A program made the translations under genes and the position numbers. A stretch of DNA of 64,000 nucleotides from contig OZ244922.1 of NCBI GenBank assembly GCA_965221905.1, positions 3,392,001-3,456,000 on the forward strand. Direction: 5' to 3'. Positions 19,952 to 54,021 of this stretch are shown piece by piece. Each line of letters opens with the position of its first letter. Position 1 is the first letter of the stretch. This DNA is from Chloroflexota bacterium (lineage in GTDB: Bacteria > Chloroflexota > UBA11872 > VXOZ01). Under the pieces are notes generated by a model, which saw only the letters and a program-made list of their open reading frames with translations, made no database searches and was not told where the DNA came from.

Positions 19952-20205
19952 TGCCAGAATCTCCCATTTTGTGATTCAACTTTGTTGCCGGCCTACCCGG
20001 ACGCATCCGGATGAGTGCCCCGCGAACGGCCAAGACACGCTGTATTCTTTTCTCATATGCTAGACTACCCGGCTGCGTTCCGCAGACTTCGCTCGCGTGC
20101 GCAGTCTCCCTCGGTCAAGTGCCTACGCTCTCGCTCTGGTCCCACTTTGCCTTCCTTCGCGTGTAAGGAGAACCTGGTGCAAAGCTTCCGCGCAACCGGT
20201 GGCCG

Positions 20206-31592: not shown

Positions 31593-31600
31593 TAGACTCC

Positions 31601-31703
31601 TTGCAATGTTGCAAAAACAATTATCAGTACCATATGTGGTACACTTTCAATCTACACTGTGCGTACTGCCCGTGTCAACCCAAAATGGTACTTGTACCGT
31701 TTT
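31601..31703. promoter_or_regulatory. Divergent promoter region with candidate operator palindromes
   Basis: GTACCA-TATG-TGGTAC (31627-31642), AAAATGGTAC-TT-GTACCGTTTT (31682-31703), TTGCAA-TG-TTGCAA (31601-31614). Confidence 0.5.
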
Positions 31704-31719
31704 AAGTACAGGAGGTTTT

Positions 31720-38626: not shown

Positions 38627-38908
38627 CCTCAAGTGCCTCAGCGACATGCCGACTGCGCCAAATGAGCATTATCCGACTTTCTGTCGAGCATGGTATCCAC
38701 TTCAAGGCCGGTCTGATTGACTTTGGTCCTGAGGTTGCAGGGCCGATCAGCCGTGCCGGTACCGTCGGACTCCAATTCTGCGTGCACGGGTAATCTACCC
38801 ACAAGTGCTTGGACACTCGCTCTGTTTGTAGCTCGGCGCGTGCCTGCAAAGGGCACAGCGACAACAGTCCTCCAATCAGGACCTCAGGTCTTAGACGACG
38901 CACACCGC

Positions 38909-39157
38909 CTACTCATATACTGCGACGAGTACGGCGTCGTGAGGGTTCTGTAAATCGTTGAAGACGACGATGCAGCGTTTGCTCACCGTGATGGCTGTGG
39001 CGTTGAGGCCGCGATTTACGGCAATGCCGTTGAGGAAGGTGGGAAACGAGCCGGTAATCTGCACGTCCGCCAGCCAATTCGGGGCGTCGAATGCCCTGAT
39101 GATGCCGCTCAAGGCATAGCCGGGCGCGATCCCGCCGGAGAACTCTGATTGTGCCAT
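38909..39157 (-). CDS. Small phage-like protein, last gene of the virion operon (possible spike/OB-fold)
   Basis: Co-oriented with the cluster, RBS AAGGA, beta-rich sequence. Confidence 0.5.
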   Translation of the reverse strand: MAQSEFSGGIAPGYALSGIIRAFDAPNWLADVQITGSFPTFLNGIAVNRGLNATAITVSKRCIVVFNDLQNPHDAVLVAVYE

Positions 39158-39311
39158 GGTTTCTTGTTCCTTCGGATAAGGGCAGTTTTCTTGCCCTATG
39201 ACAAATGTGCGTCTGCCCTACGAACAATCGACTCTATAGGGTGTGGGACTTCCGGTCAGTTTTGCATGGACAAGCCCCCGCGCTAGGATTGCTTGCAATG
39301 ACGCGAGTCTC

Positions 39312-41280
39312 TTAGGCCTCATCCAGGTCCCCACACTGCAGAACCATCGTGTAGTCCGCGTCGTGGGGTGTGTAGCGGTGGCTGATCCGCGCAATGCGCA
39401 GCTTGCCGTGGGCAAAGCCCGTGGTTTGAAAGTCGACCACGTCGCCGATTTGGAGCGTGGGATTGTAGGGCACGTCTACGGCATACGCGTTGCTATCGCG
39501 GCGGACGCCCGCCAGCACCGCTTCCGCGCGGCCCTGGCAGTCTGCGGCCTGCGTCAATTGGGTGTCGGTGACAAGGACTGTTTGCTCGCTGCCGTGCGTT
39601 CGCACTGCATCCCAATCCCAGGCCTCGCCCAACACACCCTTGCCCTGCACCAACACGTGATTTATTCCGTTGCGCTGCTGCCATGCGCCGACGAATTCCT
39701 GGCCGGTGTACGTCCACGTCGTCTCATCCGTCTGTGGAAACTCACAATGTACCGTACCGTCCGCTTCCACCCGCCACTGGAGCGCATTGAGCGCCACCAG
39801 GCGGTCTATCATCGTTTGCCACGGTTGACCGGCATGCAGGGCAAAAGCAGGCAAGGCGCGGTCAAAGCGGCTATCGCCGTCGTCGGTCATACGCAGCGCT
39901 CCGGCGCGGTACCACGCCTCGGCAAGCAACGCGCGCACAGTATACCCATTGTACGACCACGTCTGCGAGACGCGGCGGCGCGCCTGCACGCTCACGTCGG
40001 CGGCCTCCACACGCACCGTGCGATTCGGTAAGAGCGTAATGCCCTGCACAACGAGCTCGGCCATCGGCGCCGTTTCGATACCACCATCGGTTACATATCC
40101 GGCGCGCACATCAAGGGTCGCGCCCGCCCGCAATGTCTTGCCAAGCCTGCCATTGAGCGCGTCGTCCGCGTTGTCCAGGAGCAGGCGTGCTGTGCTCGTC
40201 TCGTTCGTTTGCTCTTCCCACTGGAATTCCAGCACGCGGCTGGATACGTCTTGGAACTGGTCCGGGTTTGTGGCCGCATAGCCCTCGTAGCGGTGAGCGG
40301 TCTCATGGTTTAACAGCCAGTAGTGGCGGGCATCCTGCCGCAGCCACGAGAATCCGGCGTAAGACTCATCTTCCACCGGCGTCCCCTCGGCAAAAGTGCC
40401 CCAGGCGTGGGCCGTACAGTAACGCCAGCGCCCGAAGTTGAGACCGGAGACCACGCCGTAGTCCCGTTCCAGGTATGCCACGCGAAACGCCTGCTCAAAC
40501 CCACTGTTCTACCGTGGGTTTGAGCAGGTCTCGCTGCGCCGTGCTGTCATCCACCCGTGCGACGGGCGTGAGCGGCTCCCAGATCGCGCCGTCGGTGCGG
40601 CAGCCCATAATAGAGGTACCGGTCGTGCCCGGCACGCCGCCCCATAACGACAGGGCAAGATGCCACGCCGTGCCGTCCCACGTGCCGCCAATACCGCCGC
40701 ATGCCGAAAAGGCGCCGTGGGACCATTCGTCTGCCTGCCAGCCTTGACCGGAGTCATAGAGCCGGAAGACGGTCACGCCACCGCCGGACTTATCAACCGC
40801 CAAGAAGATGCTGCCGTTGCCGCCGTAGCAGAGCGCGCGCACGATCTGACGGGCATTCCAAAGAGTCTCCGGGCTGCCCCACGTGGCTCCGCCGTCGGAG
40901 CTCGTCCGGCGATAGACTGTGGTGAACGTGACATAGACCGCCATCACGTCGCCATTGGGCAACACACCCGCGGCAACGCCCGCAGCGCCGGTGACGCGGG
41001 TTTGCAGAGTTGACCAAGCGGTCCATTGGCTTGCCTGGCTGGGGTCGGCAATGCGCTGATACGAAACGGTGGCTGAACGCACGCCCCGCTCCGGCGAGAC
41101 GTCCACGCGCCAGAGCGCGCCGCCGGTGTCTACGAAACAGGCGCTGGCGGCAGCGGAGCGCGGGTCGGTACGATAGAGTTCGTAGTGGTGCTCACCATCG
41201 CGCAATGTAAACTGCATTGCCGGTTGCCGTGCCGGTGCGTCTACGGCTGCGGCCAGGGTGTCGGATAACGTGCGTGCCAT
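39312..41280 (-). pseudogene. Large tail/baseplate-hub-like protein (Asp-box N-part + hub-like C-part), split by a +1 frameshift at ~40495
   Basis: ORFs 40495..41280 (SSDGGATW Asp-box) and 39312..40481 (LLLDNAD, LQIGDVV..RISHRY) are in adjacent frames. Confidence 0.6.
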
Positions 41281-41282
41281 TG

Positions 41283-41720
41283 CTAGACCTCCCGCAACAC
41301 TACGTGCGTTTCCCACTCCAGCAGCCATAGCCGCTCTTTACCAAAGGGAATTACCCGATCCTCGCAGGCAGCGAAACGCACCGTATAACTATCCTCCAAG
41401 GGATCGACGAACGCATGGTCCTCGTTCAACTGTCGATAGAATTCCCAGAGCCAGTCGTGCCACTGCCGCGCCTTGGTGGCGTTCGTCGTGCCGTCGAGAT
41501 TACGCACGTTACTGCGGCACATGACGACGAAACCAAACTCGCGCTTTCCTAAGCCGCTCTCGACGTACGAAATCGAGCCTGCCGCTGTCCGACGCGCCTG
41601 CGCGAGACGCGGTTGGGTCATAGTAAATGTGCCGGGCTTTACGAAGAATCCCACCGGCACGCCGCCGTTCACGTTGGCGTTGGCCAGCGTCACGTTGCAG
41701 TCCATCCCTATGGTTGCCAT
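41283..41720 (-). CDS. Phage-like tail protein, paralog of 42293..42700
   Basis: MATIGMDC..FVKPG..GKR pattern; RBS GAGGGGAG. Confidence 0.55.
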   Translation of the reverse strand: MATIGMDCNVTLANANVNGGVPVGFFVKPGTFTMTQPRLAQARRTAAGSISYVESGLGKREFGFVVMCRSNVRNLDGTTNATKARQWHDWLWEFYRQLNEDHAFVDPLEDSYTVRFAACEDRVIPFGKERLWLLEWETHVVLREV

Positions 41721-41847
41721 ATGGTCAATACTCCCCTCTCATGTCGGTATTCCAAGAGAACTTCAAAAGGATGCACAATCGGAACTCCGGCGATGCAATC
41801 CCAAAACTCGCGATGCAATCGGAAATCTCACAAGGACGCCACTCTTC

Positions 41848-42222
41848 CCGTTCGCCCTGAGCCTGTCGAAGGGCTCTTCATGGCGCGAACCTCTTTTCCG
41901 TTCGCCCTGAGCTTGTCGAAGGGTCGTTGGGTCGAAGAGCCCTCCTTGGCGCGGACCCTTTATTCCGTTCGCCCTGAGCCTGTCGAAGGGCCGATGGGCC
42001 CTCCACGGCGCGAACCCTCTTTCCGTTCGCCCTGAGCTTGTCGAAGGGTCGAAGGGCCCTCCACGGCTCCAACCCTCTTTTCCGTTCGCCCTGAGCTTGT
42101 CGAAGGGTCGATGGGCCCTCCACGGCGCGAACCCTCTTTCCGTTCGCCCTGAGCTTGTCGAAGGGCCGATGGGCCCTCCACGACGCGATCCTCTTTTCCG
42201 TTCGCCCTGAGCTTGTCGAACG
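41848..42222. repeat. 7-copy direct array of REP family A (CCGTTCGCCCTGAGCYTGTCGAAGGG)
   Basis: Copies at 41848, 41898, 41965, 42023, 42082, 42140, 42198. Confidence 0.9.
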
Positions 42223-42292
42223 GCAGGCATCCGGTACAAACACCTATTTACCCTCGCCATGACGACCCGTTTGCGCTACCGGCCCACGCCCT

Positions 42293-42700
42293 TCACGCCT
42301 CGACCAGCGATACCGCGATCTCCCACTCCGGCTGCTCCCAGAATCCCGCTGCCTCCGACACGCGTTCTTCCAGACTCAACGTGTGTACGCTGTGCTCTGT
42401 ACCCAGCCGGTCCGTAAAGCGCAGCGCCTCGGCCTTGGCGTAGGACGCCCGCAGGCGTGTACGGAAGGCAGCGGCAGCAGTAGGGTTAATTGTGCCGTTG
42501 CGGTTGAGGTGGTTGGCGAATGCGAGAACGGTGAAGTGCCAGACCTGCTTGCCCGCGCCAAGGTCAACTGCCGCGGGACCGGCCGCTGCCTCCGGCGCCG
42601 CGGCCAGAACTTTAGGAATCTCTACGCGATAGGACCCGGGCTTAACGAAATAGCCGTGTCCGTCCAGAATCACCGAGCAATCCTCACCAACGGTTGGCAT
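42293..42700 (-). CDS. Phage-like tail protein, paralog of 41283..41720
   Basis: MPTVGEDC..YFVKPG..GKQ pattern. Confidence 0.55.
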   Translation of the reverse strand: MPTVGEDCSVILDGHGYFVKPGSYRVEIPKVLAAAPEAAAGPAAVDLGAGKQVWHFTVLAFANHLNRNGTINPTAAAAFRTRLRASYAKAEALRFTDRLGTEHSVHTLSLEERVSEAAGFWEQPEWEIAVSLVEA

Positions 42701-42706
42701 GGGTCA

Positions 42707-43081
42707 TTACCTTATCTCTACGAGTTTGACGACAATGCGGTTGGGCATGCCGGTCAACCCCAAACTGAGGCGTTCCTGCACGCGGTACGTGCGGACGCTC
42801 GCGACTTGTGCGCTGTCCGGCGTATCGGCAATCGCAACCACACCGGATAGGTCTACGTCCGGAGCGAACTCTGCCGTGGCATCCGGCCCATGACTGCGCC
42901 TGCGATTGCCGGGGTTTGCCGCGCCGGAGGATTCGTTTCGCTCCTCCTTCCACGTACACTGCGCCGCCGCGTACGCGGTGGCGCCGCCGTCATTCCGGAT
43001 CAGAGTGACCGTACGCAGCCGCCCGTGGCGGATCTGCTCACGGTTTGCCAACACCTGCGCGGCCTGCTTGCTATCGAGCAT
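42707..43081 (-). CDS. Putative head-closure/neck protein
   Basis: Position after the adaptor, ~125 aa, RBS GGAG. Confidence 0.45.
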   Translation of the reverse strand: MLDSKQAAQVLANREQIRHGRLRTVTLIRNDGGATAYAAAQCTWKEERNESSGAANPGNRRRSHGPDATAEFAPDVDLSGVVAIADTPDSAQVASVRTYRVQERLSLGLTGMPNRIVVKLVEIR

Positions 43082-43422
43082 TGCAATTCTCCGTTCGTTC
43101 TTTGCACGTTGCTTTCTGCTGTTCCGCTGTGGCCTTGGACGCAGCACCAGAGTTAGTGCAGGGGAAAGTCGTCTGGCGGGCACCCGTTTCGACGCTTACT
43201 CAGAGCCTCGCCCATTCGCGATTCCGGCCAACAAAACTATGCGAATAGGCGCGATCCAATCCGTCATTCCCGCGGAAAGCTTGCCCCGTACCTGATACGG
43301 GGCGGGAATCCATCTTCTCTGCGCAACCTGCCCACTTCCCCAGGCCGGGGACAAGCCCCCGTGCTACGGTCTAGCGCGAATGCAGGGCTTGCCAGGGCGG
43401 CCATGCGGAACGACTTTCGCAA

Positions 43423-44091
43423 TCATCGCGCCATGTCCGCGCCATCTACCGTCCACGCTACGCTCCCCCGCGTTTGCTGCGCCCGTTCCTGCCGCAGCAC
43501 GTCAAGCTCCTTCTCAAACGATTCACGCGCCGTGCTGCCCTTCTCCCACCACGCTCCGCTCACCATGCTCGTATCCACGCCGGCCCCTTGTTGGCCGTCT
43601 TGGTAGCGGAAGTTATCTGACTTTGGGGTCGCGTAGGCCAAGCACGCGTGAGCGTACGCGCCGGTCGTCAGCAGACCGGTATACGGGCCAGGCAGCGTCC
43701 ACAGGCTGTCGCTGGCGACGTGCTTGGTGCCCCAGCGCACACGCACCGCATCGGCGGCGCTAGGCGCTTCCGGCACGAGCAGAAAGACGAATCCCGGCGC
43801 GCCCTCGCTCGTAGGCAGCACCATGAAGGTGCAAAGCTTCGGAGGGTAGCAACCCGTGGGCCACTCCACCTCCTCCACGCTCCACACCTCCACGAGGCTG
43901 CTCAAGTCCACCAGCCGCGAATCCGCACTGGTGCTCAACGTGGCGTCGCGCGACCAGGGCAAAGCCCGCGATAGCTCGGCCAGGGCGCGGTCGATGGCGT
44001 GATCGAGGGCCGCGTCGCTGAAACGCGGTTCGGCGTCCGCCGGATCGAACAACTCGTTGCGCAACGAGCTGCGAAATTCGCTCAGTGTCAT
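43423..44091 (-). CDS. Putative head-tail adaptor
   Basis: MTLSEFRSSLRNEL.D....FSDAALD..I..AL helical pattern directly after the capsid gene. Confidence 0.6.
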   Translation of the reverse strand: MTLSEFRSSLRNELFDPADAEPRFSDAALDHAIDRALAELSRALPWSRDATLSTSADSRLVDLSSLVEVWSVEEVEWPTGCYPPKLCTFMVLPTSEGAPGFVFLLVPEAPSAADAVRVRWGTKHVASDSLWTLPGPYTGLLTTGAYAHACLAYATPKSDNFRYQDGQQGAGVDTSMVSGAWWEKGSTARESFEKELDVLRQERAQQTRGSVAWTVDGADMAR

Positions 44092-44260
44092 AGGTAATCC
44101 TCAAGTGTCAGTTGCTACGATGATGTCCGGCGCAACGAGATGCCGCGCTCAATTGAAGCTCATTACTAGAAGGCTCCCGTGGCGCGGCGAACTCAGGCCG
44201 CGCCAAGGCTTTGTTGAACATTAATGGTCAAACGGGGAACGTGATCCCCTCTTTCAGGGC

Positions 44261-44288
44261 GTAGGGGCACGACTTGTCGTGCCCCTAC
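44261..44288. repeat. GTAG-type REP family C (GTAGGGGCACGACATGTCGTGCCCCTAC); other copies 56802, 58215, variant 52954
   Basis: Near-perfect palindromes. Confidence 0.85.
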
Positions 44289-44390
44289 AGGAACATCCCT
44301 TTTCCCACCGGGGGGAGGGCTGGGGTGGGGGTCTCCCCTCACCCCGCAACGATGCATCAAGCACCCCATTGCCCCCAGCACACACAGGAC

Positions 44391-46385
44391 CTACGCTACT
44401 TCAGCCCAGTAAGCGCCCCGGTAGTCCAGCCAGCCGCCGCCAAACTCCCAGCGCATCTTGTAGCTGATCGCGTCGTTGGTAAAGACCGATCCGGCGGTTG
44501 GGTTATCCTGCACCAGCAGTTCCGGCGTCTCCTGACCGTTGATGAAACCGACCTCCAGGCTCTCGATCTGCGCCGGGTCCGCCATCAGGTAGTAGTCCTT
44601 GGCATCGCTGAACTGCGGCACCACGATCGGCTCCAGCATGCCTTGCAGCGGATTAGCGTCGTTATTCTGGCTGCCGGGCAGCAGCGTGCTGTTGAGAATC
44701 GTCACAGCCGTCCAATACAGATCCGGCGGCAGCAAGAGTTACCGGGGCTTGATGCCCAGGCGCTTATCCGCGCTATTGGTCTGCTTCATCATCCGCGTAA
44801 TCGCAGACTGTAGCGCCGTGGCCGCCAGCGCCGCGGTGCCGCGATTCTTGTGCGAGGTCTGGGTGCCGTCGTCGAAGACCTTCGTGCTGTCGGCGAGCGC
44901 AGGATTGCTTGTAAAGAGGCCGTACACGAACTCATTGATGGTCGTGGCCGCCGCGATCGCGAGCTTGGTAGGAATGCGTCGGATAGCTTCCAGGTCGTCG
45001 TTGAGTATCGCCTCGCGGGTGACCACCACCAGGTTGCCACGCTTGGCGGGCGTGTAGGTCTCTCGCGTGTCGTCCCACGCAAGGTTCGTGTAGGCCGCGT
45101 TCTCGTTGACCGTGCCAAGTGCCCCGAAATCATGCAGCAGCACCCGGTACTGGGGCTTGTAGTCGCGAATCGAGCGGATCGCGCAGAATTTCTTCCAGTC
45201 CTGGGGCTGCGCGCCGTAGTCCTGGACGAGACGCTTCGTAATGGCGTTGGCGAGCGCGTGGTTGAGCACGCTCGTGGTGACCTCGTTGGCCTCGCGCACG
45301 GTCGAGAGCTCCAGATTCAGGGTGCCCCGGATTTCGGTATCGCCCGTGATCTGCACGTATGCCTCTCGAATGCTGGACCACGCAGGAATAGGCTCTTCAG
45401 AGGCAACGTCCCGCACGCCCAAGAGTCGCGCCAAGCCGGCCTCGGCCGCGGCTAAACCCCAGCTTGCTCCGGCGCCGCCCATGCTGATGCGCGCCTTCTC
45501 CGCGCCCACGCCCCGCACGGCGTGCGCAGAACCCGTGAGCGCGCGCACGGTCTCTACCTCTTCCTGAACGGCCTGTTCCAAGACGGCAGTGGTAAAGGTC
45601 TGCCCTTCAAAGCGGCGGCGCAGCTTGCCCTTGATCGCGGCGGGCAGAGCCACGGTATCGAGCCGCTCGTGGAGAGCGGTCATGCAGGCGAGTTTCCCTT
45701 CTGCCTCGGCGAGACGGGCATCTACCGTCATCGTGGCAGTATCTTCCATGAGTACCTCCTCGGTATGTGGTGAATCTGTTGACTCCGCCCCGGCATGGGG
45801 CTCGACGTTTGCTGTGTCGGTACGTTGGTCTCCTTGCATAGCGTTCTCCTTGTCTGTGCTGAAAATCTCTTGCGCTGCCAAGACGCGCTCGAACGCGCCG
45901 CCGGCCGCGGCCCGCGTGACCACGTCGCAGGAGCGCAACACCGGGATGCGTTCCACTACTTGGATGCTCTTGCCGTTCTGCTGCTGGGTGCGCACCGACG
46001 CCAGAGAGTCAATCGAGAGACCCAGCACGTCAGGGCGTCCCATTTCCACAGCTTCCTGCACCAAACTCCAGAGCCAGTCGGCGCTGCTAAAGATATGGAG
46101 GGTGGCCCGCACGCGGTCACCCTCCAGCCGGGGTTCGCGATAGAACCCCACCACGTCGCGGACGCTCCGTGGCTTGTGGATGCTGTCGCCGGCGGGCGAC
46201 GGATGGTCGGCAAAGGCTTTGAGGCCGTCGATCTGCTGCGCCACGTCCTGCAACGCTTGGGGCGTGAAGTAGCGGCCGTTCCGCGACATGCCTTGCCGGA
46301 GCACGGTTACGGCTACATCGCGTTGCGGCGCGTCGAGCTGCGCCTCCTGTAACGGTACGAGCAGCGCCAGGTGTTCGGGTTTCAA
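44391..46385 (-). pseudogene. Prohead protease/scaffold + Mu gpT-like major capsid fusion, interrupted by in-frame TAA at 44739-44741
   Basis: SRNGRYF, FADHP, GLSI, DVVTRAAAGG protease motifs; TREAILNDDL and LEVGFINGQETP capsid motifs; reads LGIKPR*LLLPPDL in one frame. Confidence 0.85.
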
Positions 46386-46591
46386 TGCGTCATCCTCCCT
46401 TCGATGTAATGCGATATTTCTTGTCCTGCTTCAACGACCCGTTGGGCGGGTTTGCAACCTGCGTCCACCCGCCTGCGCATGGCACAACCGGATAGATGTC
46501 TTTGTGAAATCCTCTTTCCAAACAGTGAAAGGGCCCTCCTGAATGCGCTGACGTCTCATGCCGGTGCGTGGACATTGGTACAATAGCCAGC

Positions 46592-47173
46592 ATGAACCTA
46601 CACAAACCCCCTTCCCCCACTGCGTCGCTCACCGTTGTCGTCGCGCCTTCTCAAGCCGGCGGCTACTGGGCAGACCTGCCGACTCTCCCCGGCTGCGTCG
46701 TACAGGGGGAAACCGTTGACGCCGTGATTGCCGACCTCACGATGACGGCGGAGATGCACTTGGCGCAGGAAGACCCGCCCGCCGACACCCTCGCTTTGCA
46801 CAACGTCGCCGTTGACATGGCCGATGTGACGTACCGCCTTACGGCCGTTACCTGGCACGGCGAGCGACGAGCTTGTGCGGTTGCGATACCCCTCCACGAC
46901 CGGGTGGCGCACGGAGAGACCGTGGAAGAGGCCCTGGCGCAACTCCGCCGGCTGCTCCCAACCTGGATCGTCGCCGATCTCGCCGAAGGCGAGCCCGTGC
47001 CGATAGTCGCGGTCGCGGAGACGGCAATTATTCATCCGCGTGTGGGCCAAGCCACCGGCGCGCCCCTTTCCCAATCCGAGGCCCTCAAGCCTGAAGTCGT
47101 CCTGGTTCTGCTCCGCGCGGCGGGTATGACCAAAGAGCAACTGAGCGAGATGCTGGATTACGACCCAGAGTGA
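46592..47173 (+). CDS. Tandem HicB-like domains fused to a HicA-like C-terminal fragment
   Basis: GGYWADLPTLPGCVVQGET and VAHGETVEEAL repeats; LKPEVVLVLLRAAGMTKEQL tail. Confidence 0.65.
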   Translation: MNLHKPPSPTASLTVVVAPSQAGGYWADLPTLPGCVVQGETVDAVIADLTMTAEMHLAQEDPPADTLALHNVAVDMADVTYRLTAVTWHGERRACAVAIPLHDRVAHGETVEEALAQLRRLLPTWIVADLAEGEPVPIVAVAETAIIHPRVGQATGAPLSQSEALKPEVVLVLLRAAGMTKEQLSEMLDYDPE

Positions 47174-47504
47174 CTGAATCTGCTCGGCAACCCCCTCTCC
47201 CTCGAGGGAGAGGGCCGGGGTGAGGGGGAATCTTGTCAGCCCAGCCTCGCCTTTTTGGCATGACTGCAACCCTTTGGAATGCAACTGTGATCCGTCATTC
47301 CCGCGAAAGCGGGAATCCATCTTCTCCGTTTGCACCTTGAACACCGGCCCCGTACTCGATACGGCGCATCGACGCGATACGGCGCCGGAATTCATCCGAC
47401 CAGCCCCCGTATACTCCCGCTTTCGCGGGAGTGACGGATTGAGTTCCCATTCAAGTGACCTGAGATTCGGCAGATAGCACGTGGCAGTCCAGTGGCGCAT
47501 CCCT

Positions 47505-48743
47505 TTACTCCTCTTCAGCCAAGAAGCGACGGAAGAGACGCGCGGCGTCCTCAGCTTCCAACCAGCCCTCTGTTTGAGCGAGTTGCAGCGACCGCGCGAA
47601 CGACTCGGCGTGCGGGCCCGCCACGTGGGCAACGTCCGGCTGGAGTTCCTGAAAGACCACGCGAAAGGCCGTATCAACATTCGCATCGAGCGCTCCGGCG
47701 TCTTGTTTCCCCTGAATCGCTCGTGCTACGAGACGACGCAGGTAGCGGCCGAAGAGTTCCTGGCGGCGTTGGAAGCGCCGCAGCGTCGGCAGGCCCATCT
47801 CGGCCGCCGTCGCCCGGTTGACGTGCCCGCCTTCGGCGAGGTAGTGCTCCGGCAAGCCTGCGCCCGCCGCTATCATCAGCTTGAGCGCGCGACCGTCTGC
47901 GGCGACGTCATCAGCGCCAATGGAGGGCTGCACCGGCTGCCAGTTCTCCGCTTCGTTATGGAAAACCACGGTGCCGGGCGCCGGCGGCTGGGCGTAGGCC
48001 GCCATCTTGGCCAGCAGGTCGTTCCGCGTTGCGCCCCGTACGGTCACGTCGTAGATGAAGCTGCCTTTGAGGCGGTTAATCCGCGCACGGTCCACCAGCC
48101 AATCTCGATAGCGTTTGAGCCACGGCAGCAGCGCTGCCAAGTCGCTGCGCCCGCGCAACGCGTTTGACACTCGATTGATGGTAAGGTGCTCCATTTCCGC
48201 TGCCGCTACCCAGTAGCCCGGGTCATTGCCGACTCCTCGCACGCGGTACCGGTGCACCTGCTCGATGTCTTCTGCCGCGGTCTCAATGCGTTCGATGAGC
48301 AGCGGATCGAGCTGTCGCAGCCTGATTTCGCCCGTAAGCGGATCGGTGAATACGCGCACGAACTGCTCGCCGTAGAGGGAAAGCTCCGTGTAGAGGCTAT
48401 AGATGCGCGTGTCCATGGTGTTGTCCGGGTGCCGCCAGAAGGCATCCACCACCTCCTGCACCGCCGCACTCGCGCACGCGATGCGCACGCCCCCGCCCAG
48501 CACGAAATTGGCCTGAATGTCGATCACGGCATACGCCAATGGGTTGGTGACGTAGGCTTCGTAGACCTCCCGCAGCAGTCGCTGGTGGTCCCAGAGCGCG
48601 TCGTCCCGCGTCTCCGAGGCCCCGGTCACCTGGCGGTAGCCGATGTCTTCAGCCGCCACCGCCTCCTGCACGCGCGTCTGGATGAGATCGCCAAAGAGGC
48701 GCTCGCCCAGGCGTTGCCACCACTCACTAGTCTGTATTGCCAT
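47505..48743 (-). CDS. Phage portal protein
   Basis: NPLA..VID...NFVLGGG, ELSLYGEQF, RGRSDL, GLPEHYL..G..NRATA; follows the terminase. Confidence 0.85.
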   Translation of the reverse strand: MAIQTSEWWQRLGERLFGDLIQTRVQEAVAAEDIGYRQVTGASETRDDALWDHQRLLREVYEAYVTNPLAYAVIDIQANFVLGGGVRIACASAAVQEVVDAFWRHPDNTMDTRIYSLYTELSLYGEQFVRVFTDPLTGEIRLRQLDPLLIERIETAAEDIEQVHRYRVRGVGNDPGYWVAAAEMEHLTINRVSNALRGRSDLAALLPWLKRYRDWLVDRARINRLKGSFIYDVTVRGATRNDLLAKMAAYAQPPAPGTVVFHNEAENWQPVQPSIGADDVAADGRALKLMIAAGAGLPEHYLAEGGHVNRATAAEMGLPTLRRFQRRQELFGRYLRRLVARAIQGKQDAGALDANVDTAFRVVFQELQPDVAHVAGPHAESFARSLQLAQTEGWLEAEDAARLFRRFLAEEE

Positions 48744-49296
48744 TGCGCTCGCTTTCTGTGTGTTGTCATGGCTCTTGTCGCATCGGGAAGCTTGATTGAA
48801 CGGCAAGCATCCGACTCACCGTTCGCCCTGAGCCTGCCTATCCTGAGCTTGTCGAAGGGTCAAAGGGCGCCCGTTCATGGTTCGACAGAGCCTGTGCAGA
48901 GCCTGCCGAAGTGCTCACCACGAACGGATTTGCAAACATTCGGTAGCGCAGGTTTGCAACCTGCGATCCTAGCCCATCTAGCCCGTCATTCCCGCAAGTG
49001 CGGGAATCCATCTTGGCTGTGTCAACAATCCCTCCCCTACAGGGCACAAGTCCCCGCACTGCGTCGCAATTCGTAGTCTTTCTCTTTGGCTGCGTGGAAA
49101 ACCGGTGGCCCTCTTCCGGTAGCGCAGGTTTGTAACCTGCGTTTCTAGCCCGTCTAGCCCGTCATTCCCGCGCAAGCGGGAATCCATCTTCTACGCGCAC
49201 ATCCTGGACTCCGGCTTTCGCCGGTGTGACGGATGGTAGTCCGACGGACCGATGGCAACACGGTCTGTGCGGAACCAGAAGAAAGCAGATTCATCA

Positions 49297-50875
49297 TCAG
49301 TACCCCTCCGTTTGCAATTCCTGCGGCGGAAGCGCGACCGAAACGGCTGGCGGCGCGCCGCCCTCCACGGTGCGTGTGAGCAGGGCCAGAGCCATCACAT
49401 AATCATCGTGTCCCTGACTGGCGGGCACATGGAAGGCGATCCGATTGCCCGGATGCAATGCCATTCGGCACCGCCGCACCTGCCGCCAGCACTCCCGGTA
49501 CTCCGGCGACCCGTCGTCCGCCCACAGTTGCAGGCGTCCGCCGCCGACCAAGGCGCGCACGTCGTAGCCCAGCGCGCTCTTCGACTGCGCCGTGAAGGTA
49601 AACGGTTCGATGCGGTCGTGGCCCAACCGCGCGCTCAAGAAACGCGCGAGCGCGTCGCCCATGCCGGTGGCGTCTATGCTTGCTCTTTGGACTCGCCACT
49701 CCTCGCCCAGCAGGCGCACGAGGCGCGCGTATTGCTCGGTGGTGGGCATAACCGGTCCACTGGTAGGCGTTTACGATCGCGACCGCGGGCAGGGCAAAGC
49801 CGAGCACCGGGTCGTGCCGCCAGACCCGCTCGCCGATCAAGACCACCGTGCTATCGCGCCGGGACCGACCGGCTTCCCGGTTACCGGCGGCGGTCTCTTC
49901 GCCGGCCACGTCCACGGCTGCGACGTAATGCGCATCCGAGCGGGGTTGCTGCTGCCGGACGTGTGTGCCCTGCAACGCCGCTTGCAACGGCGGCGTGAAG
50001 AAGCCGGTGGCGTCGTCCACCTCTTCCAAGCGGTACTGGGTACGGATGACCAAGTCATCCTCGCCGCGCTGGCGAATCTGCGCCTTTACCGCCGCTCCGT
50101 AGCGCTGGTTTACCTGTGCCCCCACCTGCCACGGAAAGGAGAAGTGCCGCTGCTCGCCGGTGCGTTCCGCATGCACGAGATTCAGCGCCTTGTACTTAGC
50201 AAGCAGCGTGTCTTTCGTCCACGGCGTACCGTAGAGCACGATGGTGGCGTTCTGCGCCGCCGCCATCGGCAGAAACTCTTTGGCGAACTTTTCCTCATCC
50301 ACGTCCTGGGCTTCGTCTACCTCCAGCAGCAAATCGGCGGTAGCGCCGACCACGTTGGACTGCTCGTGCGCCGAGAGGAACATCACGCGCGCGTTGCCTA
50401 CGGTCACCATGCTGCCCTGGGTACGTTTCCAATACGGCGCCAGCCAGGGATGGTCCAGCAGCGATTCGAGGCGCAGGCGGGAGATGAGGGTCTGCGGGGT
50501 CAGCGTGGGGGCGCACTTCACAATCGTGCCACCGCGCCGTTGATAGCGGTACAGGAGATAGGCTTCGAGATGCGCCGAAAGCTCATTCTTGCCCATCTGC
50601 CGCGCCATCTCCACGGTGAAAATAGCCCCTTGCCGCCGCCGCACACTCGCGAGCACCGGCCGCGCCACCGCCAACTGGTAGGACCGCAGCGGACGCCCCA
50701 CAAGCACACGCGAAAAGTGCGCAATGTCGTTGAGGGTATAGCGGAAGAAGGTGCGGGCGATTTCATTCCCGTCTTCCCCGTGCGGGACGGGCGACAAGTG
50801 AGAAGCGCCGGTCTCCGCGTCTCTCTTCTGTGTGTCTGCAACGTTCGTTTTCATTGAATGCTCGTTACTACTCAT
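49297..50875 (-). pseudogene. Terminase large subunit, +1 frameshift at ~49750
   Basis: ARQMGKNE, LEVDEAQD, YGTPW, VDVAG in the first frame; IDATGMG and GHDDYVMALAL nuclease motifs in the second frame. Confidence 0.85.
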
Positions 50876-50924
50876 TCCGGCAGGTCATCGGAGGCGCATG
50901 CGATTCTGCGCCCCGTGTTCCCAT

Positions 50925-51167
50925 CTACTGCCCCGGCACGATGCGCAGGAGGCCGTTGAGGAAAGCGGCGGCAAACGGCGAAGCGAAGATGCCGATCAGG
51001 ATGACGTTGATCTTCGCTTCCAGCCGGGCGTAGTCCTCCCGCGTGTTCTCGGCCAACTCGCGCGTCACCTGACCGAAGGCGCAACCGTGTTGCGCCAGGC
51101 GGTCCGCCAGGTCTTGGTGGCGCGCGTCGTGCTTCCTCGGCGTGTGCGTGTTTGATTCATTCAGCAT
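50925..51167 (-). CDS. Small coiled-coil + single-TM protein (holin/XhlA-like?)
   Basis: EDYARLEAKIN followed by hydrophobic VILIGIFASPFAAAFL. Confidence 0.5.
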   Translation of the reverse strand: MLNESNTHTPRKHDARHQDLADRLAQHGCAFGQVTRELAENTREDYARLEAKINVILIGIFASPFAAAFLNGLLRIVPGQ

Positions 51168-51564
51168 GGTGTTTTTCCTGAGTGCTTTCTTCCTGCTGCT
51201 CCCGCACCTCGATCTCCGCAATCACCTGGCGCATCGCCTCGGTCAGGTTGTCTTCGGCTCGGGGCGAAAGTTGAGCGCGCGCTTTCAGGGCGTTGAGAAG
51301 AATGTCCGTCAGGTCCTTTACCGCCTTGATCTTGTCCGCCGGTGCGCGCTCGTCGTCTTCGGCATTGAGCATCTGGGCTGCGATGCGGCGAATGAGCATG
51401 CGCAGCAGTCCGATCTCGTCCTGGAGCAGCGGATTATCGGCGGTCCGCTCCAACGCCGACAGCTCATGTTCGGCGAAGAGGTCGGCGTAGAGACTTCTAG
51501 GTTGCTTCTTGCGTTGGGTCACTGGGTTGTTTTCCTTTTCGTCATGGCTATGCGCTTCGTGCAT
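51157..51564 (-). CDS. Putative terminase small subunit
   Basis: SLYA..F, LQDEIGLLRMLIRR helical motif, upstream of terL. Confidence 0.55.
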   Translation of the reverse strand: MHEAHSHDEKENNPVTQRKKQPRSLYADLFAEHELSALERTADNPLLQDEIGLLRMLIRRIAAQMLNAEDDERAPADKIKAVKDLTDILLNALKARAQLSPRAEDNLTEAMRQVIAEIEVREQQEESTQEKHHAE

Positions 51565-51781
51565 GGCAGGAATAGTGTTCTGTGCAGTGCCTTTCCCGCC
51601 GTTCCTCCTGTTTTTGGTCGGCGCGCCGTAGAGTTACAGCGGGGACACCTCGCGGCATGGCGCGGCCTTTGCCAAGCGTTACAGGGAGGGCATCGATGGC
51701 ACTGTGTGGTACTCGTCCATAGTTTTGGGGCTGCATAAAGGTACATTCAAAAATAATATAAAACTTAAGGGGTAAAAGGGG

Positions 51782-51810
51782 TTGTATTTTTACTAAATAT
51801 TTACTATACT
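51782..51810 (+). promoter_or_regulatory. Sigma70-type promoter towards lexA/sigma
   Basis: TTGTAT-N17-TATACT in an AT-rich island; TAAATATTTA palindrome in the spacer. Confidence 0.65.
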
Positions 51811-52309
51811 GGGAAAAACACGGTGCAGAGTATGAGAACACAGGAGGTTTAGCAGGTGCCGTGGCTGTGCGAACAGACTGGATCGCTGCGCCAACAGACT
51901 GGATTGGCACTGACGAAGAGGGGTCTTTTGATTACTTGGCCGGCGCCAATTTTACCGTTCGCCCTGAGCCTGTCGAAGGGTGAACGGATGTGCTGAGCAC
52001 AGGTGGTGTTCCTTTACCGTTCGCCCTGAGCCTGTCGAAGGGTGAACGGATGTGGCACTGAGAGAACCGCAGTACATGCGCACACTGTCGTTCATACTTC
52101 GACCCTTCGACAGGCTCAGGGCAGGCAGGCTCAGCACGAACGGTTTTCACAGACTGCACAAACACCCAAGAAGAGAAAGAAAGCGCCGGGTTGCGGTTTA
52201 CGAATGGGTCTTCATTTAAGCAGCAAGCACGGCGACAGACCCTGCACGCAAGAAGCCCGGTGGCAGATTTACCGCTTAGTAGCGTCTAGCGACGGAGAGG
52301 AAGGCGCAC

Positions 52310-52948
52310 ATGAAAGAAACACCTATGGGTAAGAAACTTACCAGTAAGCTGCTTACCCATAAGCAACGGCAGGTGCTGACGTTTCTCACGCGCGTACAGC
52401 AAGAGGGACGCTGGCCCACCTTGGAAGAGATTGCCCGGTGCATCGGCGCGCGCTCACCGGCGGCGGCGCACCACCATCTGAAGCGCTTGGAAATCAAAGG
52501 GCACCTGCGCCGCACGGCCTGGGGCACCTACGAGCTTACGCCCCAGGTGCAGATGTTGGAGGGCTTGGGAGTAGCGCGCGTACCGGTGCGCGGCACGATT
52601 GCCGCCGGTACCGGCGTGGAGGCGGTGGAGGCAGTGGAAGACTGGCTCACCGTGGATAGCGTCTTCGCGCGTCATCCCGATGTCTACGCGCTGCGCGTGC
52701 AGGGCGACAGCATGGTGGATGCCTGCGTCTGCAACGGCGACCACGTGCTCATTCGCCCCCAGCCCGCTGCGGAGAACGGCGAGATGGTGGCGGCCTTGCG
52801 CGAAGACGGCACCGCCACGCTGAAGTACCTCCGCCGCGACGACGGGCAAGTATTCCTTGTACCCGCCAACCCGTATTACCCTACGCTCCCCGGCAACAAC
52901 ATCACCATTCTCGGCAAGGTGGTCGGCGTGATCCGCGTATTCGCATGA
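52310..52948 (+). CDS. lexA: LexA-family repressor (probable paralog)
   Basis: wHTH PTLEEIA, IAAG cleavage site, GDSM (Ser), TLK (Lys). Confidence 0.85.
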   Translation: MKETPMGKKLTSKLLTHKQRQVLTFLTRVQQEGRWPTLEEIARCIGARSPAAAHHHLKRLEIKGHLRRTAWGTYELTPQVQMLEGLGVARVPVRGTIAAGTGVEAVEAVEDWLTVDSVFARHPDVYALRVQGDSMVDACVCNGDHVLIRPQPAAENGEMVAALREDGTATLKYLRRDDGQVFLVPANPYYPTLPGNNITILGKVVGVIRVFA

Positions 52949-53060
52949 GAACTGTAGGGGCGCTTGCTGTAGGGGCGCTTCGCGAAGCGCCCCTACGTAA
53001 AAAACGACCCAACGTTACATACCAGATACCGTTCCAGCTAACGAAGGAGAGGAAAGAGCA

Positions 53061-53729
53061 ATGGCAGCAACAATGCCCTTAATGAATGCGACGCCGTTGG
53101 CGAAAGCAACGCCTGTGGCGAAAGAGCCGACGCCCGCACGGCCGCCTGACGAACTGCTCGTCACGGTGCAGGCGGCAAAGCAGGGCAATACCACCGCCCA
53201 GATGCTGCTCATGGACCGCTTGCGCCTGCCGATGGAGCGTCAGATACGGCGTCTCAGGCGGAGCTTCCGGCCTTCGGAGGCTGAAGACGCCCGCCAAGAG
53301 GTGCAGCGCCTCTTTCTGGAGCTGCTCTACGAGTATGACTATACGCGCAACGGCAACTTCGAAGCCTACATGTGCACCATGCTCAAGTGGCGCGTACACA
53401 ACTTCGGCCGCACCTCCCGGCGTACTGCGCCGCCGGACCCCGCCCATAATCAGTCGCTCAGCAATGAGATTACGGCCTATCTCGCCGAGCAGCGCTTGCG
53501 CGCAGGCACGCCCACGGCGGAACCGGCAGTCCACGTCGAGCTCGATCAAGCCCTGCGGATGCTCACGCCCAAGCAGAAGACGGTGCTCTACGCGATCTAC
53601 TGGCAAGACCGTCGTGTGGTGGACATCGCCGCGCGCATGGGCGTAAGCCCGCAAGCTGTGCGCGCTATCCGCCAACGGGCGGAAAAAATCCTCCGCCAGC
53701 GCCTGGAAGCCTCCGGCGCCGCGCCTTAG
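53061..53729 (+). CDS. Sigma-70 family (region 2 + 4) alternative sigma factor
   Basis: AKQGN..A...L, EDARQE, YDYTR.GNFEAY, IAARMGVSPQAV. Confidence 0.85.
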   Translation: MAATMPLMNATPLAKATPVAKEPTPARPPDELLVTVQAAKQGNTTAQMLLMDRLRLPMERQIRRLRRSFRPSEAEDARQEVQRLFLELLYEYDYTRNGNFEAYMCTMLKWRVHNFGRTSRRTAPPDPAHNQSLSNEITAYLAEQRLRAGTPTAEPAVHVELDQALRMLTPKQKTVLYAIYWQDRRVVDIAARMGVSPQAVRAIRQRAEKILRQRLEASGAAP

Positions 53730-54021
53730 ACCGATTCACAGTCACGGACGCCGCAACACAGCTAACAATCTGGTGAAGGAGCGTGAACGCATAGCGAACC
53801 GAGGACACAGTACCGCGCCTAAAGTGGCTGAGAGCAGGCTCGTACTGCGGACAATCTAAAACAGAAAACCAATCTGCTCGACACGACAGACAATATTGTG
53901 TAACATCCTCCCAAACCAGTATGAACTGCGACATCTACTCAAATTATGACGCCGTGTAGGATGCGCCTTCGCGCCCACCACCGACGGTAGTCGCAACGTT
54001 ACCAAGAAACGATACAATGGC

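What the first reader, a model, noticed from the sequence alone, without database searches (positions are those of the whole stretch)
38909..53729. Candidate gene-transfer-agent-like domesticated virion cluster under LexA + sigma control
Seen: one ~12.7-kb run of terS-like, small TM protein, terL, portal, protease-capsid fusion, adaptor, neck, two paralogous tail proteins, a hub-like protein and a small terminal gene. No integrase, replication, recombination, tape-measure or endolysin gene is recognisable, and I saw no att repeats. Composition looks host-like, host REP repeats fill most intergenic gaps, it abuts housekeeping asd, and it is divergent from a LexA paralog and an alternative sigma factor. 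Known: GTAs are similarly sized head-tail clusters without replication or integration genes and are under host control. Inference: a long-resident GTA-like or other capsid-based system that I do not recognise as characterised in this lineage.
Basis: partly seen in the sequence, partly recalled or inferred. Interest (0 to 1): 0.88.

Follow-up and report, generated by a model that had tools for sequence, protein, structure and literature searches.

The report
Inherited phage-derived particle genes in Chloroflexota
This is a set of virus-derived head, neck and short-tail genes that Chloroflexota bacteria appear to have inherited and kept as their own for a very long time, much like a gene transfer agent, although the copy in this genome has recently been broken by three mutations.

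Summary
The gene run is real: terS-like, small membrane protein, terL, portal, protease-capsid fusion, SU10-type adaptor, neck protein, two paralogous tail-tube-fold proteins, a large distal tail protein and a small end gene (window 38909-51564, minus strand).

- In this genome terL (+1 nt), the capsid gene (TAC to TAA) and the distal tail gene (+4 nt) are broken. Contigs from public runs show the same lesions.
- The "hub-like" gene and the gene before it are one gene.
- The LexA is the genome's only LexA, not a paralog.
- Cluster GC is unusually high for this genome.

Domestication is strongly supported:
- The portal is single-copy in 15 of 16 other genomes of the genus, with the same gene order beside lexA in the 15 loci mapped.
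- No integrase lies nearby.
- dN/dS is 0.07-0.27, and dS is close to that of rpoB.
- The cluster tree largely matches the rpoB tree.
- Portal divergence tracks RpoB divergence between families.
- In another family the orthologues sit in three loci up to 2.3 Mb apart, still under purifying selection.
- Relatives fill whole families, including cultured Ktedonobacteria, and were not found in others.

Particle production, packaged DNA and LexA/sigma control remain untested.

The parts
51157..51564 (-). terS-like small helical protein (135 aa), first gene of the operon
   Evidence: No Pfam or PHROG hit. ESM Atlas gives Chloroflexota clusters at 0.95, and T5_Terminase_small 0.82 and DUF1804 0.81 as leads only. 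Found in all 15 genus loci, dN/dS 0.19.
50925..51167 (-). small protein (80 aa from the conserved Met) with a hydrophobic C-terminal helix, between terS-like and terL
   Evidence: Translation. Intact in 15 of 15 genus loci and present in G017. dN/dS 0.19. No family hit.
49297..50875 (-). large terminase, broken here by a 1-nt insertion at about 49750 (ATPase part 49751-50875, nuclease part 49297-49749)
   Evidence: PHROG terminase hits on both parts and Pfam Terminase_6C. Alignment: GGTTATG here against GGT(A/C/T)TG in 12 relatives. One 525-aa ORF in the relatives. X1 and X2 contigs are identical to the window; X4 lacks the extra base.
47505..48743 (-). portal protein (412 aa from the conserved Met)
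   Evidence: PHROG_10963 8.5e-39 and weak Pfam Phage_portal. Single copy in 15 of 16 other genus genomes at 88-97% identity. dN/dS 0.07.
46568..47173 (+). hicB-like gene on the opposite strand inside the cluster
   Evidence: Pfam UPF0150 1e-8 and HicB_lk_antitox below cut-off. PHROG_497. Present in all 15 genus loci. dN/dS 0.19.
44391..46385 (-). head-maturation protease fused to major capsid protein, broken here by an in-frame TAA at 44739-44741
   Evidence: PHROG_4523, 133 and 15531, and Pfam Phage_capsid_4 on both pieces. The codon is Tyr (TAC or TAT) or Phe in all 20 relatives examined. X1 and X2 contigs of 4029-4030 nt are identical to the window across the stop.
43423..44091 (-). head-to-tail adaptor
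   Evidence: Pfam SU10_adaptor, 29.1 bits against a cut-off of 27. dN/dS 0.14.
42707..43081 (-). small neck-position protein (122 aa from the conserved Met), function unassigned
   Evidence: No family or PDB sequence hit. Found next to the portal in Ktedonobacteria-type loci and in 64 loci overall.
42293..42700 (-). tail-tube-fold protein 1 (135 aa)
   Evidence: AlphaFold2 model with mean pLDDT 72. Foldseek hits to baseplate, tube-initiator and hub chains of Mu, 7-7-1, phi812, phiCD508 and diffocin, to SPP1 Dit and to lambda gpV.
41283..41720 (-). tail-tube-fold protein 2 (145 aa), paralog of the former
   Evidence: 34% identical to protein 1 in alignment A2. Only one copy of the family in the other lineages examined.
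39312..41280 (-). large distal tail protein (654 aa in relatives), split here by a 4-nt insertion near 40493-40496
   Evidence: One continuous ORF in 8 aligned relatives and in the tblastn check. ESM Atlas: 'phage tail protein' clusters of Chloroflexota 0.98-0.99, Sipho_Gp37 0.92. PHROG_1887 tail protein 1.8e-4. Contigs of X1, X2 and X3 carry the insertion; X4 lacks it. The AF2 model of the C-terminal part was poor, pLDDT 46.
38909..39157 (-). small end gene (82 aa), conserved, function unknown
   Evidence: Relatives in 37 loci, including Ktedonobacteria, where it is the N-terminal part of a 200-aa protein between capsid and adaptor. No family hit.
51735..51835 (.). roughly 100-nt AT-rich non-coding block upstream of terS-like, in the region shared with divergent lexA; candidate promoter/operator
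   Evidence: Near-invariant in 15 of 15 genus genomes while the flanking non-coding DNA is not alignable. Its core motifs occur once in the genome. No Rfam match.
52310..52948 (+). lexA, the only LexA of the genome, divergent from the cluster
   Evidence: Pfam LexA_DNA_bind plus Peptidase_S24. Single genome-wide hit for PF01726, and the second S24 hit is a signal peptidase. Adjacent to the cluster in all 15 genus loci.
53061..53729 (+). small sigma-70-family protein downstream of lexA
   Evidence: Pfam Sigma70_r4_2 1.2e-10. Adjacent in all 15 genus loci. Not found near the cluster outside the genus.
41844..42235 (.). tandem array of 7 REP-type units between the two tube-fold genes, which gives spurious ORFs
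   Evidence: the repeat finder families D1-D6. Summed contig depth is 10,000-20,000 there against about 60 beside it.

Best explanation
The cluster is the local copy of a phage-derived particle gene set: DNA-packaging motor, portal, self-processing capsid, adaptor, neck, one or two rings of tube-fold protein and a distal tail protein. It has no tape measure, sheath, integrase or replication genes. Chloroflexota have inherited this set vertically as host genes and kept it under purifying selection.

The most likely product is a small, short-tailed, GTA-like particle. The cell would fill it with DNA through terL and the portal and release it, so that it could not carry its own scattered genes. 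Within this genus the operon shares a conserved promoter region with the host's only lexA and lies next to a small sigma factor. That makes SOS- or sigma-dependent expression plausible.

In this particular genome the set was recently inactivated by three mutations, in terL, the capsid gene and the distal tail gene. This organism probably no longer makes particles.

Shown: gene identities, the lesions, synteny, single copy, absence of integrases, dN/dS, tree congruence, dispersal in other families, and a family-wise distribution.

Inferred: particle assembly, packaging of host DNA, transfer, and regulation.
For: Identities.

Vertical inheritance in the genus:
- The portal is single-copy in 15 of 16 other genus genomes. 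The one miss is 69% complete.
- Gene order is the same, with lexA and sigma on one side, in the 15 loci.
- Every genus genome has just two Xer-like tyrosine recombinases (one has a third), none near the portal.
- All 11 genes assessed are intact in 8 of 15 genomes. In 2 more, 10 are intact and the end gene is not in the stretch held.
- Median dN/dS is 0.07 (portal) to 0.24 (neck), against 0.05 for rpoB. Median dS is 0.50-0.91, against 0.90 for rpoB.
- 7 of 12 internal splits are shared by the cluster tree and the rpoB tree. Label permutations gave a mean of 0.3 and a maximum of 4 in 2000.

Deeper descent: RpoB is 89-90% identical within the genus and 64% identical to family f5. The portal is 88-91% and 58-60%.

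Dispersal in family f5:
- Portal and procapsid form one locus. Adaptor, neck and tube protein lie 34 kb away. terL stands alone 1.67-2.28 Mb away.
- Each locus lies between host genes. terL sits between guaA and an M50B peptidase gene.
- dN/dS is 0.12-0.25 for the pieces that could be measured.

Ktedonobacteria: portal-neck and capsid-to-tube modules lie on opposite strands, and terL is 15-390 kb away. In Thermogemmatispora all 8 genes have dN/dS 0.05-0.24, and all are intact in 2 of the 3 comparisons.

Distribution in 401 genomes at least 90% complete: 82 have the portal. Counts by family are f1 12/12 and f25 32/35, against f6 0/28, f12 0/27, f16 0/26 and f15 0/18.

Phage relatives are distant. 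The best of 50,697 phage records is 31% identical. IMG/VR phage-like contigs are 27-34% identical and sit on long branches outside the chromosomal clades.

The lesions are real in the population sampled.
Against: - No particle, packaged DNA or transfer has been observed.
- No lysis gene, tape measure or recognisable receptor-binding protein was identified.
- terS-like and the membrane protein were found only in the genus, plus the membrane protein in one more genome.
- 5 of 15 genus loci carry at least one stop or frameshift (G000, G005, G006, G007, G013) and G008 is rearranged, so selection is not uniform. Only the G000 lesions were checked against reads, and frameshifts in the other MAGs could be assembly errors.
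- No SOS box was found, and the conserved upstream block has no counterpart upstream of recA or uvrA.
- GC is elevated mainly at third codon positions. RcGTA clusters differ: there GC1 and GC2 are raised (PMC7360931, passages read).
- dN/dS below 1 alone would also be seen in independently acquired functional phages.
- Congruence was tested against a single host marker.
- Presence in two classes could reflect ancient transfer rather than common descent.
Confidence: 0.6

Rival explanations
1. A domesticated particle system kept for a purpose other than gene transfer. Examples: a PBSX-like killer particle (phage-like bacteriocin), a decoy or interference device against related phages, or a DNA-release device for filamentous communities.
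For: All the evidence for domestication applies equally. Adjacency to lexA and a small sigma factor recalls PBSX, which is SOS-induced and driven by the sigma-like Xpf (recalled, not from a call). No competence link was shown, apart from a comEA-like gene beside the adaptor locus in family f5, which may be chance.
Against: terL, portal and capsid are all conserved, which points to DNA packaging as the selected activity. There is no sheath or other killing apparatus. No defence-family signal was sought or seen.
Confidence: 0.2
2. A decaying cryptic prophage remnant without function, conserved in position only because it has not yet been deleted.
For: There are three lesions in this genome, and lesions or rearrangement in five further genus genomes. 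REP elements have invaded the intergenic gaps. Replication, integration and lysis genes are missing.
Against: At dS of about 0.5-0.9, neutral decay would have destroyed all the reading frames. Yet 8 of 15 genomes keep all 11 genes assessed intact, and dN/dS is 0.07-0.27. Changes specific to G000 are still 188 synonymous to 64 non-synonymous. Solitary terL in family f5 has dN/dS 0.18. Portal divergence equals RpoB divergence across families.
Confidence: 0.12
3. A family of active temperate phages, or of satellites such as capsid-forming PICIs, that integrates at the same site in many Chloroflexota.
For: IMG/VR lists 35 contigs with related portals. Distant phage-like contigs share the order terL, portal, protease-capsid, adaptor. 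dN/dS below 1 fits a functional virus.
Against: There is no integrase near the cluster in any of the 17 genus genomes, and there are no att repeats. Gene sets are scattered over up to 2.3 Mb among host genes. Each genome has a single copy. The cluster tree matches the host tree. IMG/VR relatives at 39-52% identity sit on 4.5-39 kb contigs with the chromosomal arrangements. Tail genes are present, unlike capsid-forming PICIs.
Confidence: 0.03

Closest known systems
RcGTA-type gene transfer agents of Alphaproteobacteria
   Same: Both are chromosomal head-tail gene sets without integration or replication genes. Both are vertically inherited, slowly evolving and under purifying selection. In both, further genes lie at separate loci, and cluster GC exceeds the genome's (PMC7360931 passages; PMC6821227 and PMC10883770 abstracts in the listing). 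In RcGTA, host regulators control expression (recalled).
   Different: No sequence-family link was seen. The capsid here is Phage_capsid_4 / Mu gpT-like, fused to its protease, and the adaptor is SU10-type. No tape measure or tail fibres were found. GC is raised at third positions, not at first and second. The host phylum is different. Function is not demonstrated.
PBSX-type defective prophage of Bacillus subtilis (recalled from general knowledge)
   Same: A host-resident, non-propagating particle that packages host DNA. It is induced by the SOS response and driven by a small sigma-like factor, the same pairing as the lexA and sigma neighbours here.
   Different: PBSX has a contractile tail and lysis genes in one contiguous prophage-like locus, and it is confined to close relatives. 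Here there is no sheath, no lysis gene was found, the distribution is family-wide, and in other families the genes are dispersed.
Capsid-forming phage-inducible chromosomal islands (cf-PICIs; recalled)
   Same: A compact packaging-plus-capsid module with terS, terL, portal, protease/capsid and connector genes.
   Different: cf-PICIs carry integrase, regulatory and replication genes and lack tail genes. This cluster has tube-fold and distal tail genes, and there is no integrase within about 1 Mb.
Phages with a protease-capsid fusion and Mu-like head module, e.g. Microcystis phage Mae-JY22 and IMG/VR contigs L163-L178
   Same: Homologous portal, and the same order of terL, portal, protease-capsid fusion and adaptor.
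   Different: Portal identity is only 27-34%. These sit on long branches outside the chromosomal clades. Mae-JY22 is a 41-kb genome with many other genes.

Membership tests
Gene transfer agent (functional class) | Phage-derived structural genes in the host chromosome without integration, replication or lysogeny modules | tested here: met
Gene transfer agent (functional class) | Vertical inheritance with the host and purifying selection | tested here: met
   Only one host marker (rpoB) was used.
Gene transfer agent (functional class) | Cannot transmit its own genes (genes scattered, or the genome exceeds the head's capacity) | tested here: inconclusive
   Scattered over up to 2.3 Mb in family f5 and over 15-390 kb in Ktedonobacteria. 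In this genus the genes are contiguous (12.7 kb), and head capacity is unknown.
Gene transfer agent (functional class) | Particles are produced and carry random host DNA that can be delivered to recipients | not testable with these tools
   Needs culture work. This genome's copy is broken.
Gene transfer agent (functional class) | Expression under host regulatory control | tested here: inconclusive
   A conserved 100-nt block is shared with divergent lexA in 15 of 15 genomes. No SOS box was found, and the block has no match upstream of recA or uvrA. The adjacency is limited to the genus.
RcGTA-like head-tail cluster (homologous family) | Homology to the RcGTA structural genes, including the tape measure and tail proteins | tested here: inconclusive
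   No direct comparison with RcGTA proteins was made. Pfam and PHROG assign other families. The RcGTA neck chain 6toa_G ranks only 28th in the fold search, probability 0.66. No tape measure was found.
Intact temperate prophage | Integrase and att repeats at the borders | tested here: not met
Intact temperate prophage | Complete, uninterrupted structural genes | tested here: not met
   terL, the capsid gene and the distal tail gene are broken in this genome.
Capsid-forming PICI | Integrase and replication module present, tail genes absent | tested here: not met
   No integrase. Tube-fold and tail proteins are present.
SU10-type head-to-tail adaptor (Pfam PF24175) | Score above Pfam's gathering cut-off | tested here: met
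   29.1 bits against a cut-off of 27, E 1.6e-6.
LexA repressor | N-terminal LexA DNA-binding domain plus C-terminal S24 peptidase domain | tested here: met
   It is the only such gene in the genome.

The most novel reading that the evidence does not exclude
A podovirus-like DNA-packaging particle was domesticated before the classes that now hold this genus and the Ktedonobacteria separated. It has been inherited as a host function ever since. Its genes drifted apart on the chromosome in some lineages and were lost in others. That would make it an independent, very old gene-transfer-agent family in a phylum of filamentous and spore-forming bacteria, including cultivable strains in which it could be tested.
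Probability: 0.35. Interest if true: 0.92.

Novelty: new variant of a known kind. Interest (0 to 1): 0.85.

Why it matters
Gene transfer agents are known from only a few lineages. The one well-studied, widely inherited family is in Alphaproteobacteria.

An independent phage-derived particle system, inherited throughout whole families of Chloroflexota, would show that this kind of domestication is more general. It would offer a second system for asking why cells keep a costly, self-sacrificing DNA-release device. It would also mean that 'prophage' and 'viral contig' calls made on these genes in Chloroflexota genomes and metagenomes are host genes. IMG/VR holds 35 related contigs.

Cultured carriers with intact sets (Thermogemmatispora, Tengunoibacter) make the question directly testable.

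I found no description of such a system in the searchable literature:
- 'gene transfer agent' with 'Chloroflexi'
- 'Ktedonobacteria', 'terminase', 'portal'
- 'Chloroflexota', 'domesticated', 'capsid'
- 'GTA' with class or genus names, whose only checked 'GTA' hit was a primer

Tried and rejected
SOS box. GAACNNNNGTTC with one mismatch gave 27 matches in the window against 24.5 expected, none convincing upstream of the operon. The regions upstream of recA and uvrA share nothing meaningful with the conserved block. LexA control is therefore left open.

Rfam. Nothing real in 38500-54000; the only match was a chance miRNA hit at E 0.73.

Promoter and terminator scan. No more sites than in shuffled sequence.

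Sequence searches of the PDB with profiles of the tube-fold family, the distal protein and the neck protein found nothing.

The AlphaFold2 model of the 389-aa part of the distal protein was too poor to search, pLDDT 46.

A conserved in-frame stop in the capsid gene and a conserved terL frameshift (programmed recoding) were considered. Both were rejected, because they are private to this genome.

Assembly error as the cause of the three lesions was considered and rejected for this genome. It was not checked for the other MAGs.

Relaxed selection on the G000 branch was not detectable: N/S is 0.34, against 0.38 and 0.25 in its two closest relatives.

RcGTA-like GC1/GC2 bias was not seen; the excess is at GC3.

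ORF annotation upstream of the cluster in G017 was abandoned because greedy ORF calling fails at its GC content.

The dN/dS value for the f5 adaptor (0.91, 7 stops) is invalid. The reference stretch spans two frames in G429, either a frameshift or an error.

Depth figures and uncovered bins from read laying were not used as evidence.

One search includes two unpublished genomes, G084 (f18) and G294 (f25), both positive. The counts 82 of 401, f18 2/2 and f25 32/35 rest partly on them. Without them the counts are 80 of 399, 1/1 and 31/34.

Full report
WHAT IS IN THE WINDOW

On the minus strand between 38909 and 51564 lies one run of genes. Pfam and PHROGs identify several of them:
- a large terminase: the ATPase part matches PHROG_675, and the nuclease part matches Terminase_6C and PHROG_5909;
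- a portal (PHROG_10963, 8.5e-39);
- a head-maturation protease fused to a major capsid protein (PHROG_4523, PHROG_133 and PHROG_15531; Phage_capsid_4 at 9.6e-44 on the intact orthologue);
- an SU10-type adaptor (29.1 bits against a cut-off of 27).

The two small proteins after the neck gene are paralogs, 34% identical. An AlphaFold2 model has mean pLDDT 72. It matches tube-initiator, hub and Dit chains of phage and tailocin baseplates, and the lambda tube protein, with Foldseek E from 5e-4 and TM 0.5-0.58.

The large distal protein resembles phage tail proteins only weakly. The ESM Atlas gives Sipho_Gp37 at 0.92, and PHROG_1887 scores 1.8e-4.

Four proteins have no family: the first gene (terS-like by position), an 80-aa protein with a hydrophobic C-terminus, the 122-aa neck-position protein, and the 82-aa end gene.

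No tape measure, sheath, fibre, lysis, integrase or replication gene was recognised.

The flanks are housekeeping genes: purB, purC, PNPase, dapB and asd on one side, and a class-V aminotransferase and a TauD-family dioxygenase on the other. There is no nearby tRNA and no flanking direct repeat. The genome's only two tyrosine recombinases lie at 2.39 and 2.45 Mb, about 1 Mb away.

THIS COPY IS BROKEN

Three genes are interrupted.
- terL has one extra base: GGTTATG here, where 12 relatives have GGT(A/C/T)TG.
- The capsid gene has TAA where all 20 relatives examined have a Tyr or Phe codon.
Here a 4-nt insertion splits it.

Contigs that Logan built from two public runs (X1 and X2, one study, possibly the source sample) are identical to the window across all three sites, at depths of about 57-73. 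A run of another study (X3) carries the 4-nt insertion. A related strain in a third study (X4) lacks both insertions. So the lesions are real in the sampled population.

They look recent. Changes private to this genome are still 188 synonymous to 64 non-synonymous, like those of its two closest relatives.

THE NEIGHBOURS

The LexA gene is complete (LexA_DNA_bind plus Peptidase_S24). It is the only one in the genome; the other S24-like hit is a signal peptidase. It is therefore the host's LexA, not a paralog.

A roughly 100-nt AT-rich block upstream of the first gene is nearly invariant in all 15 genus genomes, while the surrounding non-coding DNA is not alignable. In genomes with a short spacer it lies about 50 nt from the lexA start, so it is probably a shared divergent promoter/operator. 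Its motifs are unique in the genome. They do not recur upstream of recA or uvrA, and no GAAC-N4-GTTC box is present. Control by LexA or by the adjacent sigma-like protein is plausible but not shown.

A hicB-like gene on the opposite strand between the portal and capsid genes is conserved across the genus.

Two REP families fill parts of 6 of 10 intergenic gaps.

The cluster is richer in GC than almost any other 12.7-kb window of the genome: 62.7% against 58.3%, the 99.9th percentile. The excess is mainly at third codon positions.

COMPARATIVE EVIDENCE WITHIN THE GENUS

The portal occurs once in each of 15 of the 16 other genomes of the genus. The one miss is 69% complete. Identity is 88-97%.

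In the 15 loci fetched, the gene order is the same, and lexA and the sigma gene lie on the same side. G008 is rearranged near a contig end, and G007 has insertions.

Each of the 17 genomes has the same pair of Xer-like recombinases (one has a third), never near the portal.

With the intact G004 set as reference, the 15 loci sort as follows:
- All 11 genes assessed are intact in 8: G001, G002, G003, G004, G009, G010, G011 and G012.
- In G015 and G016, 10 genes are intact and the small end gene was not found in the stretch held. It is also missing from the stretches held for G013 and G007.
- G000, G005, G006, G007 and G013 carry stops or frameshifts. Outside G000 these were not verified against reads.

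Nei-Gojobori estimates over all pairs give median dN/dS of 0.07 for the portal, 0.14-0.19 for most genes and 0.24 for the neck protein, against 0.05 for rpoB. Median dS is 0.50-0.91, against 0.90 for rpoB.

A tree of nine concatenated cluster proteins shares 7 of 12 internal splits with the rpoB tree. These include all well-supported clades. Shuffled labels share 0.3 on average and at most 4 in 2000.

BEYOND THE GENUS

A portal profile finds 95 relatives among species-representative genomes. All 80 listed lie in Chloroflexota (two are labelled only 'bacterium'). They include Thermogemmatispora, Tengunoibacter, Ktedonosporobacter and a MAG labelled Thermoflexus hugenholtzii, at 41-60% identity.

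In an even sample of 401 genomes of the phylum (at least 90% complete), 82 have the portal, mostly once. The pattern is by family: f1 12/12, f25 32/35, f19 4/7, f18 2/2 and f21 2/2, against 0/28, 0/27, 0/26, 0/18, 0/17 and 0/14 in six other families. Two of the positives are unpublished genomes; see Tried and rejected.

RpoB and the portal diverge in step. RpoB is 89-90% identical within the genus and 64% identical to family f5. The portal is 88-91% and 58-60%.

In family f5 the orthologues are no longer together.
- Portal and procapsid form one locus.
- Adaptor, neck and tube protein form another, 34 kb away.
- terL stands alone 1.67 Mb (G429) or 2.28 Mb (G430) away, between guaA and an M50B peptidase gene.
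- Flanking host genes are shared between two species of that family.
- dN/dS is 0.12-0.25 for portal, procapsid, terL, tube and neck.

In Ktedonobacteria, portal and neck lie on one strand. Capsid, two extra conserved proteins, the 82-aa homologue, adaptor and tube protein lie on the other. terL is 15 kb to about 390 kb away. In Thermogemmatispora all eight genes have dN/dS 0.05-0.24. All eight are intact in two of the three comparisons; the third (a MAG, L096) shows one stop in the adaptor.

Known phages are far. Only 5 of 50,697 records match the portal, the best at 31% identity (Microcystis phage Mae-JY22, a Mu-like genome).

IMG/VR holds 35 related contigs.
- Those at 39-52% identity are on contigs of 4.5-39 kb with the chromosomal arrangements.
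- Those at 27-34% look like phages with the order terL, portal, protease-capsid, adaptor.
- In the portal tree 14 such contigs form a long-branched clade. I rooted the tree on 13 of them (one falls on the wrong side), so the root is chosen, not inferred. The two short-branched chromosomal clades, of 36 and 62 rows, lie outside it.

INTERPRETATION

A prophage remnant that was merely left in place would not keep intact reading frames at a synonymous divergence near saturation. An active phage would not be single-copy at one locus, congruent with the host tree, free of integrases, or scattered over megabases among host genes.

The data fit a phage-derived gene set that became a host function long ago. 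It has been inherited vertically, lost in some families and occasionally inactivated in single species, as here.

The parts kept are the packaging motor, portal, capsid, connector, a very short tube and a tail tip. They point to a DNA-filled, short-tailed particle. Where the genes are dispersed, the particle cannot carry its own genes. That is the definition of a GTA-like element.

Whether it transfers DNA, kills competitors as PBSX does, or serves another purpose cannot be decided here. Nor can its regulation, its release mechanism (no lysis gene was found) or its head capacity.

COMPARISON WITH KNOWN SYSTEMS

It works most like RcGTA-type agents. Both are chromosomal and vertically inherited, evolve slowly, have accessory loci elsewhere, and show elevated GC (PMC7360931, passages read). 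It differs in having no detected sequence-family link to them. It also has a different head module, no tape measure, and a GC excess at third positions rather than first and second.

Its neighbourhood recalls PBSX (SOS plus a sigma-like factor; recalled), but it has no contractile tail.

It is not a capsid-forming PICI, because it has tail genes and no integrase.

I found no description of it in four literature searches. Supplementary files could not be read.

VERDICT

The domestication reading is strongly supported. GTA function and LexA/sigma control are untested. This particular copy is recently dead.

It is a new variant of a known kind of system and of high interest, because intact copies exist in cultivable Ktedonobacteria.

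Noticed in passing
window 46568-47173 (+): A hicB-like gene (UPF0150 / HicB_lk_antitox) sits on the opposite strand between the portal and capsid genes. It is conserved in all 15 genus loci with dN/dS 0.19. No hicA partner was seen beside it, and it was not found in the clusters of other families.
   Followed up: partly
window 30191-32731: A DUF6791-ThiF (E1-like) gene lies next to an XRE-type HTH gene and an IrrE/ImmA-type M78 peptidase gene. This may be a defence or stress-regulatory island, and it is unrelated to the cluster.
   Followed up: no
window 54022-55280 (+): An N6/N4 DNA methyltransferase overlaps a 237-aa ORF that has no Pfam hit, a possible restriction-modification pair. Both lie next to the sigma gene in 9 of the 15 genus loci as well.
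   Followed up: no
L126 (G013) and L128 (G016), rpoB: The rpoB reading frame is 1544 aa in G013 and 1294 aa in G016, against about 1160 aa in the rest of the genus. This suggests an insertion such as an intein.
   Followed up: no
L138 11030-11692 and L140 12773-13384: In family f5 a comEA-like gene (SLBB plus HHH_3 domains, a DNA-binding competence protein) lies beside the adaptor-neck-tube locus in two species. This may be chance.
   Followed up: partly
window 41844-42235, 47290-47350, 48818-49215, 51951-52054: Two REP families fill the intergenic gaps. One contains CCGTTCGCCCTGAGCCTGTCGAAGGG and the other CCGTCATTCCCGCGAAAGCGGGAATCC. The first forms a 7-unit tandem array that creates spurious ORFs of 121-165 aa.
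   Followed up: partly
L025 (G008) 11852-13137: In G008 the small end gene and tube-fold gene 2 lie inverted directly after the capsid gene. The distal tail gene, adaptor, neck and tube-fold gene 1 were not found before the contig ends. This is either a rearranged or partly deleted cluster, or an assembly artefact.
   Followed up: no
L086 17238-18203 and L100 5162-6577: Ktedonobacteria carry two further conserved genes between the capsid gene and the 82-aa homologue. One is 192-351 aa and the other 96 aa. Neither has a family hit, dN/dS is 0.05-0.15, and no counterpart was found in the window's cluster.
   Followed up: partly
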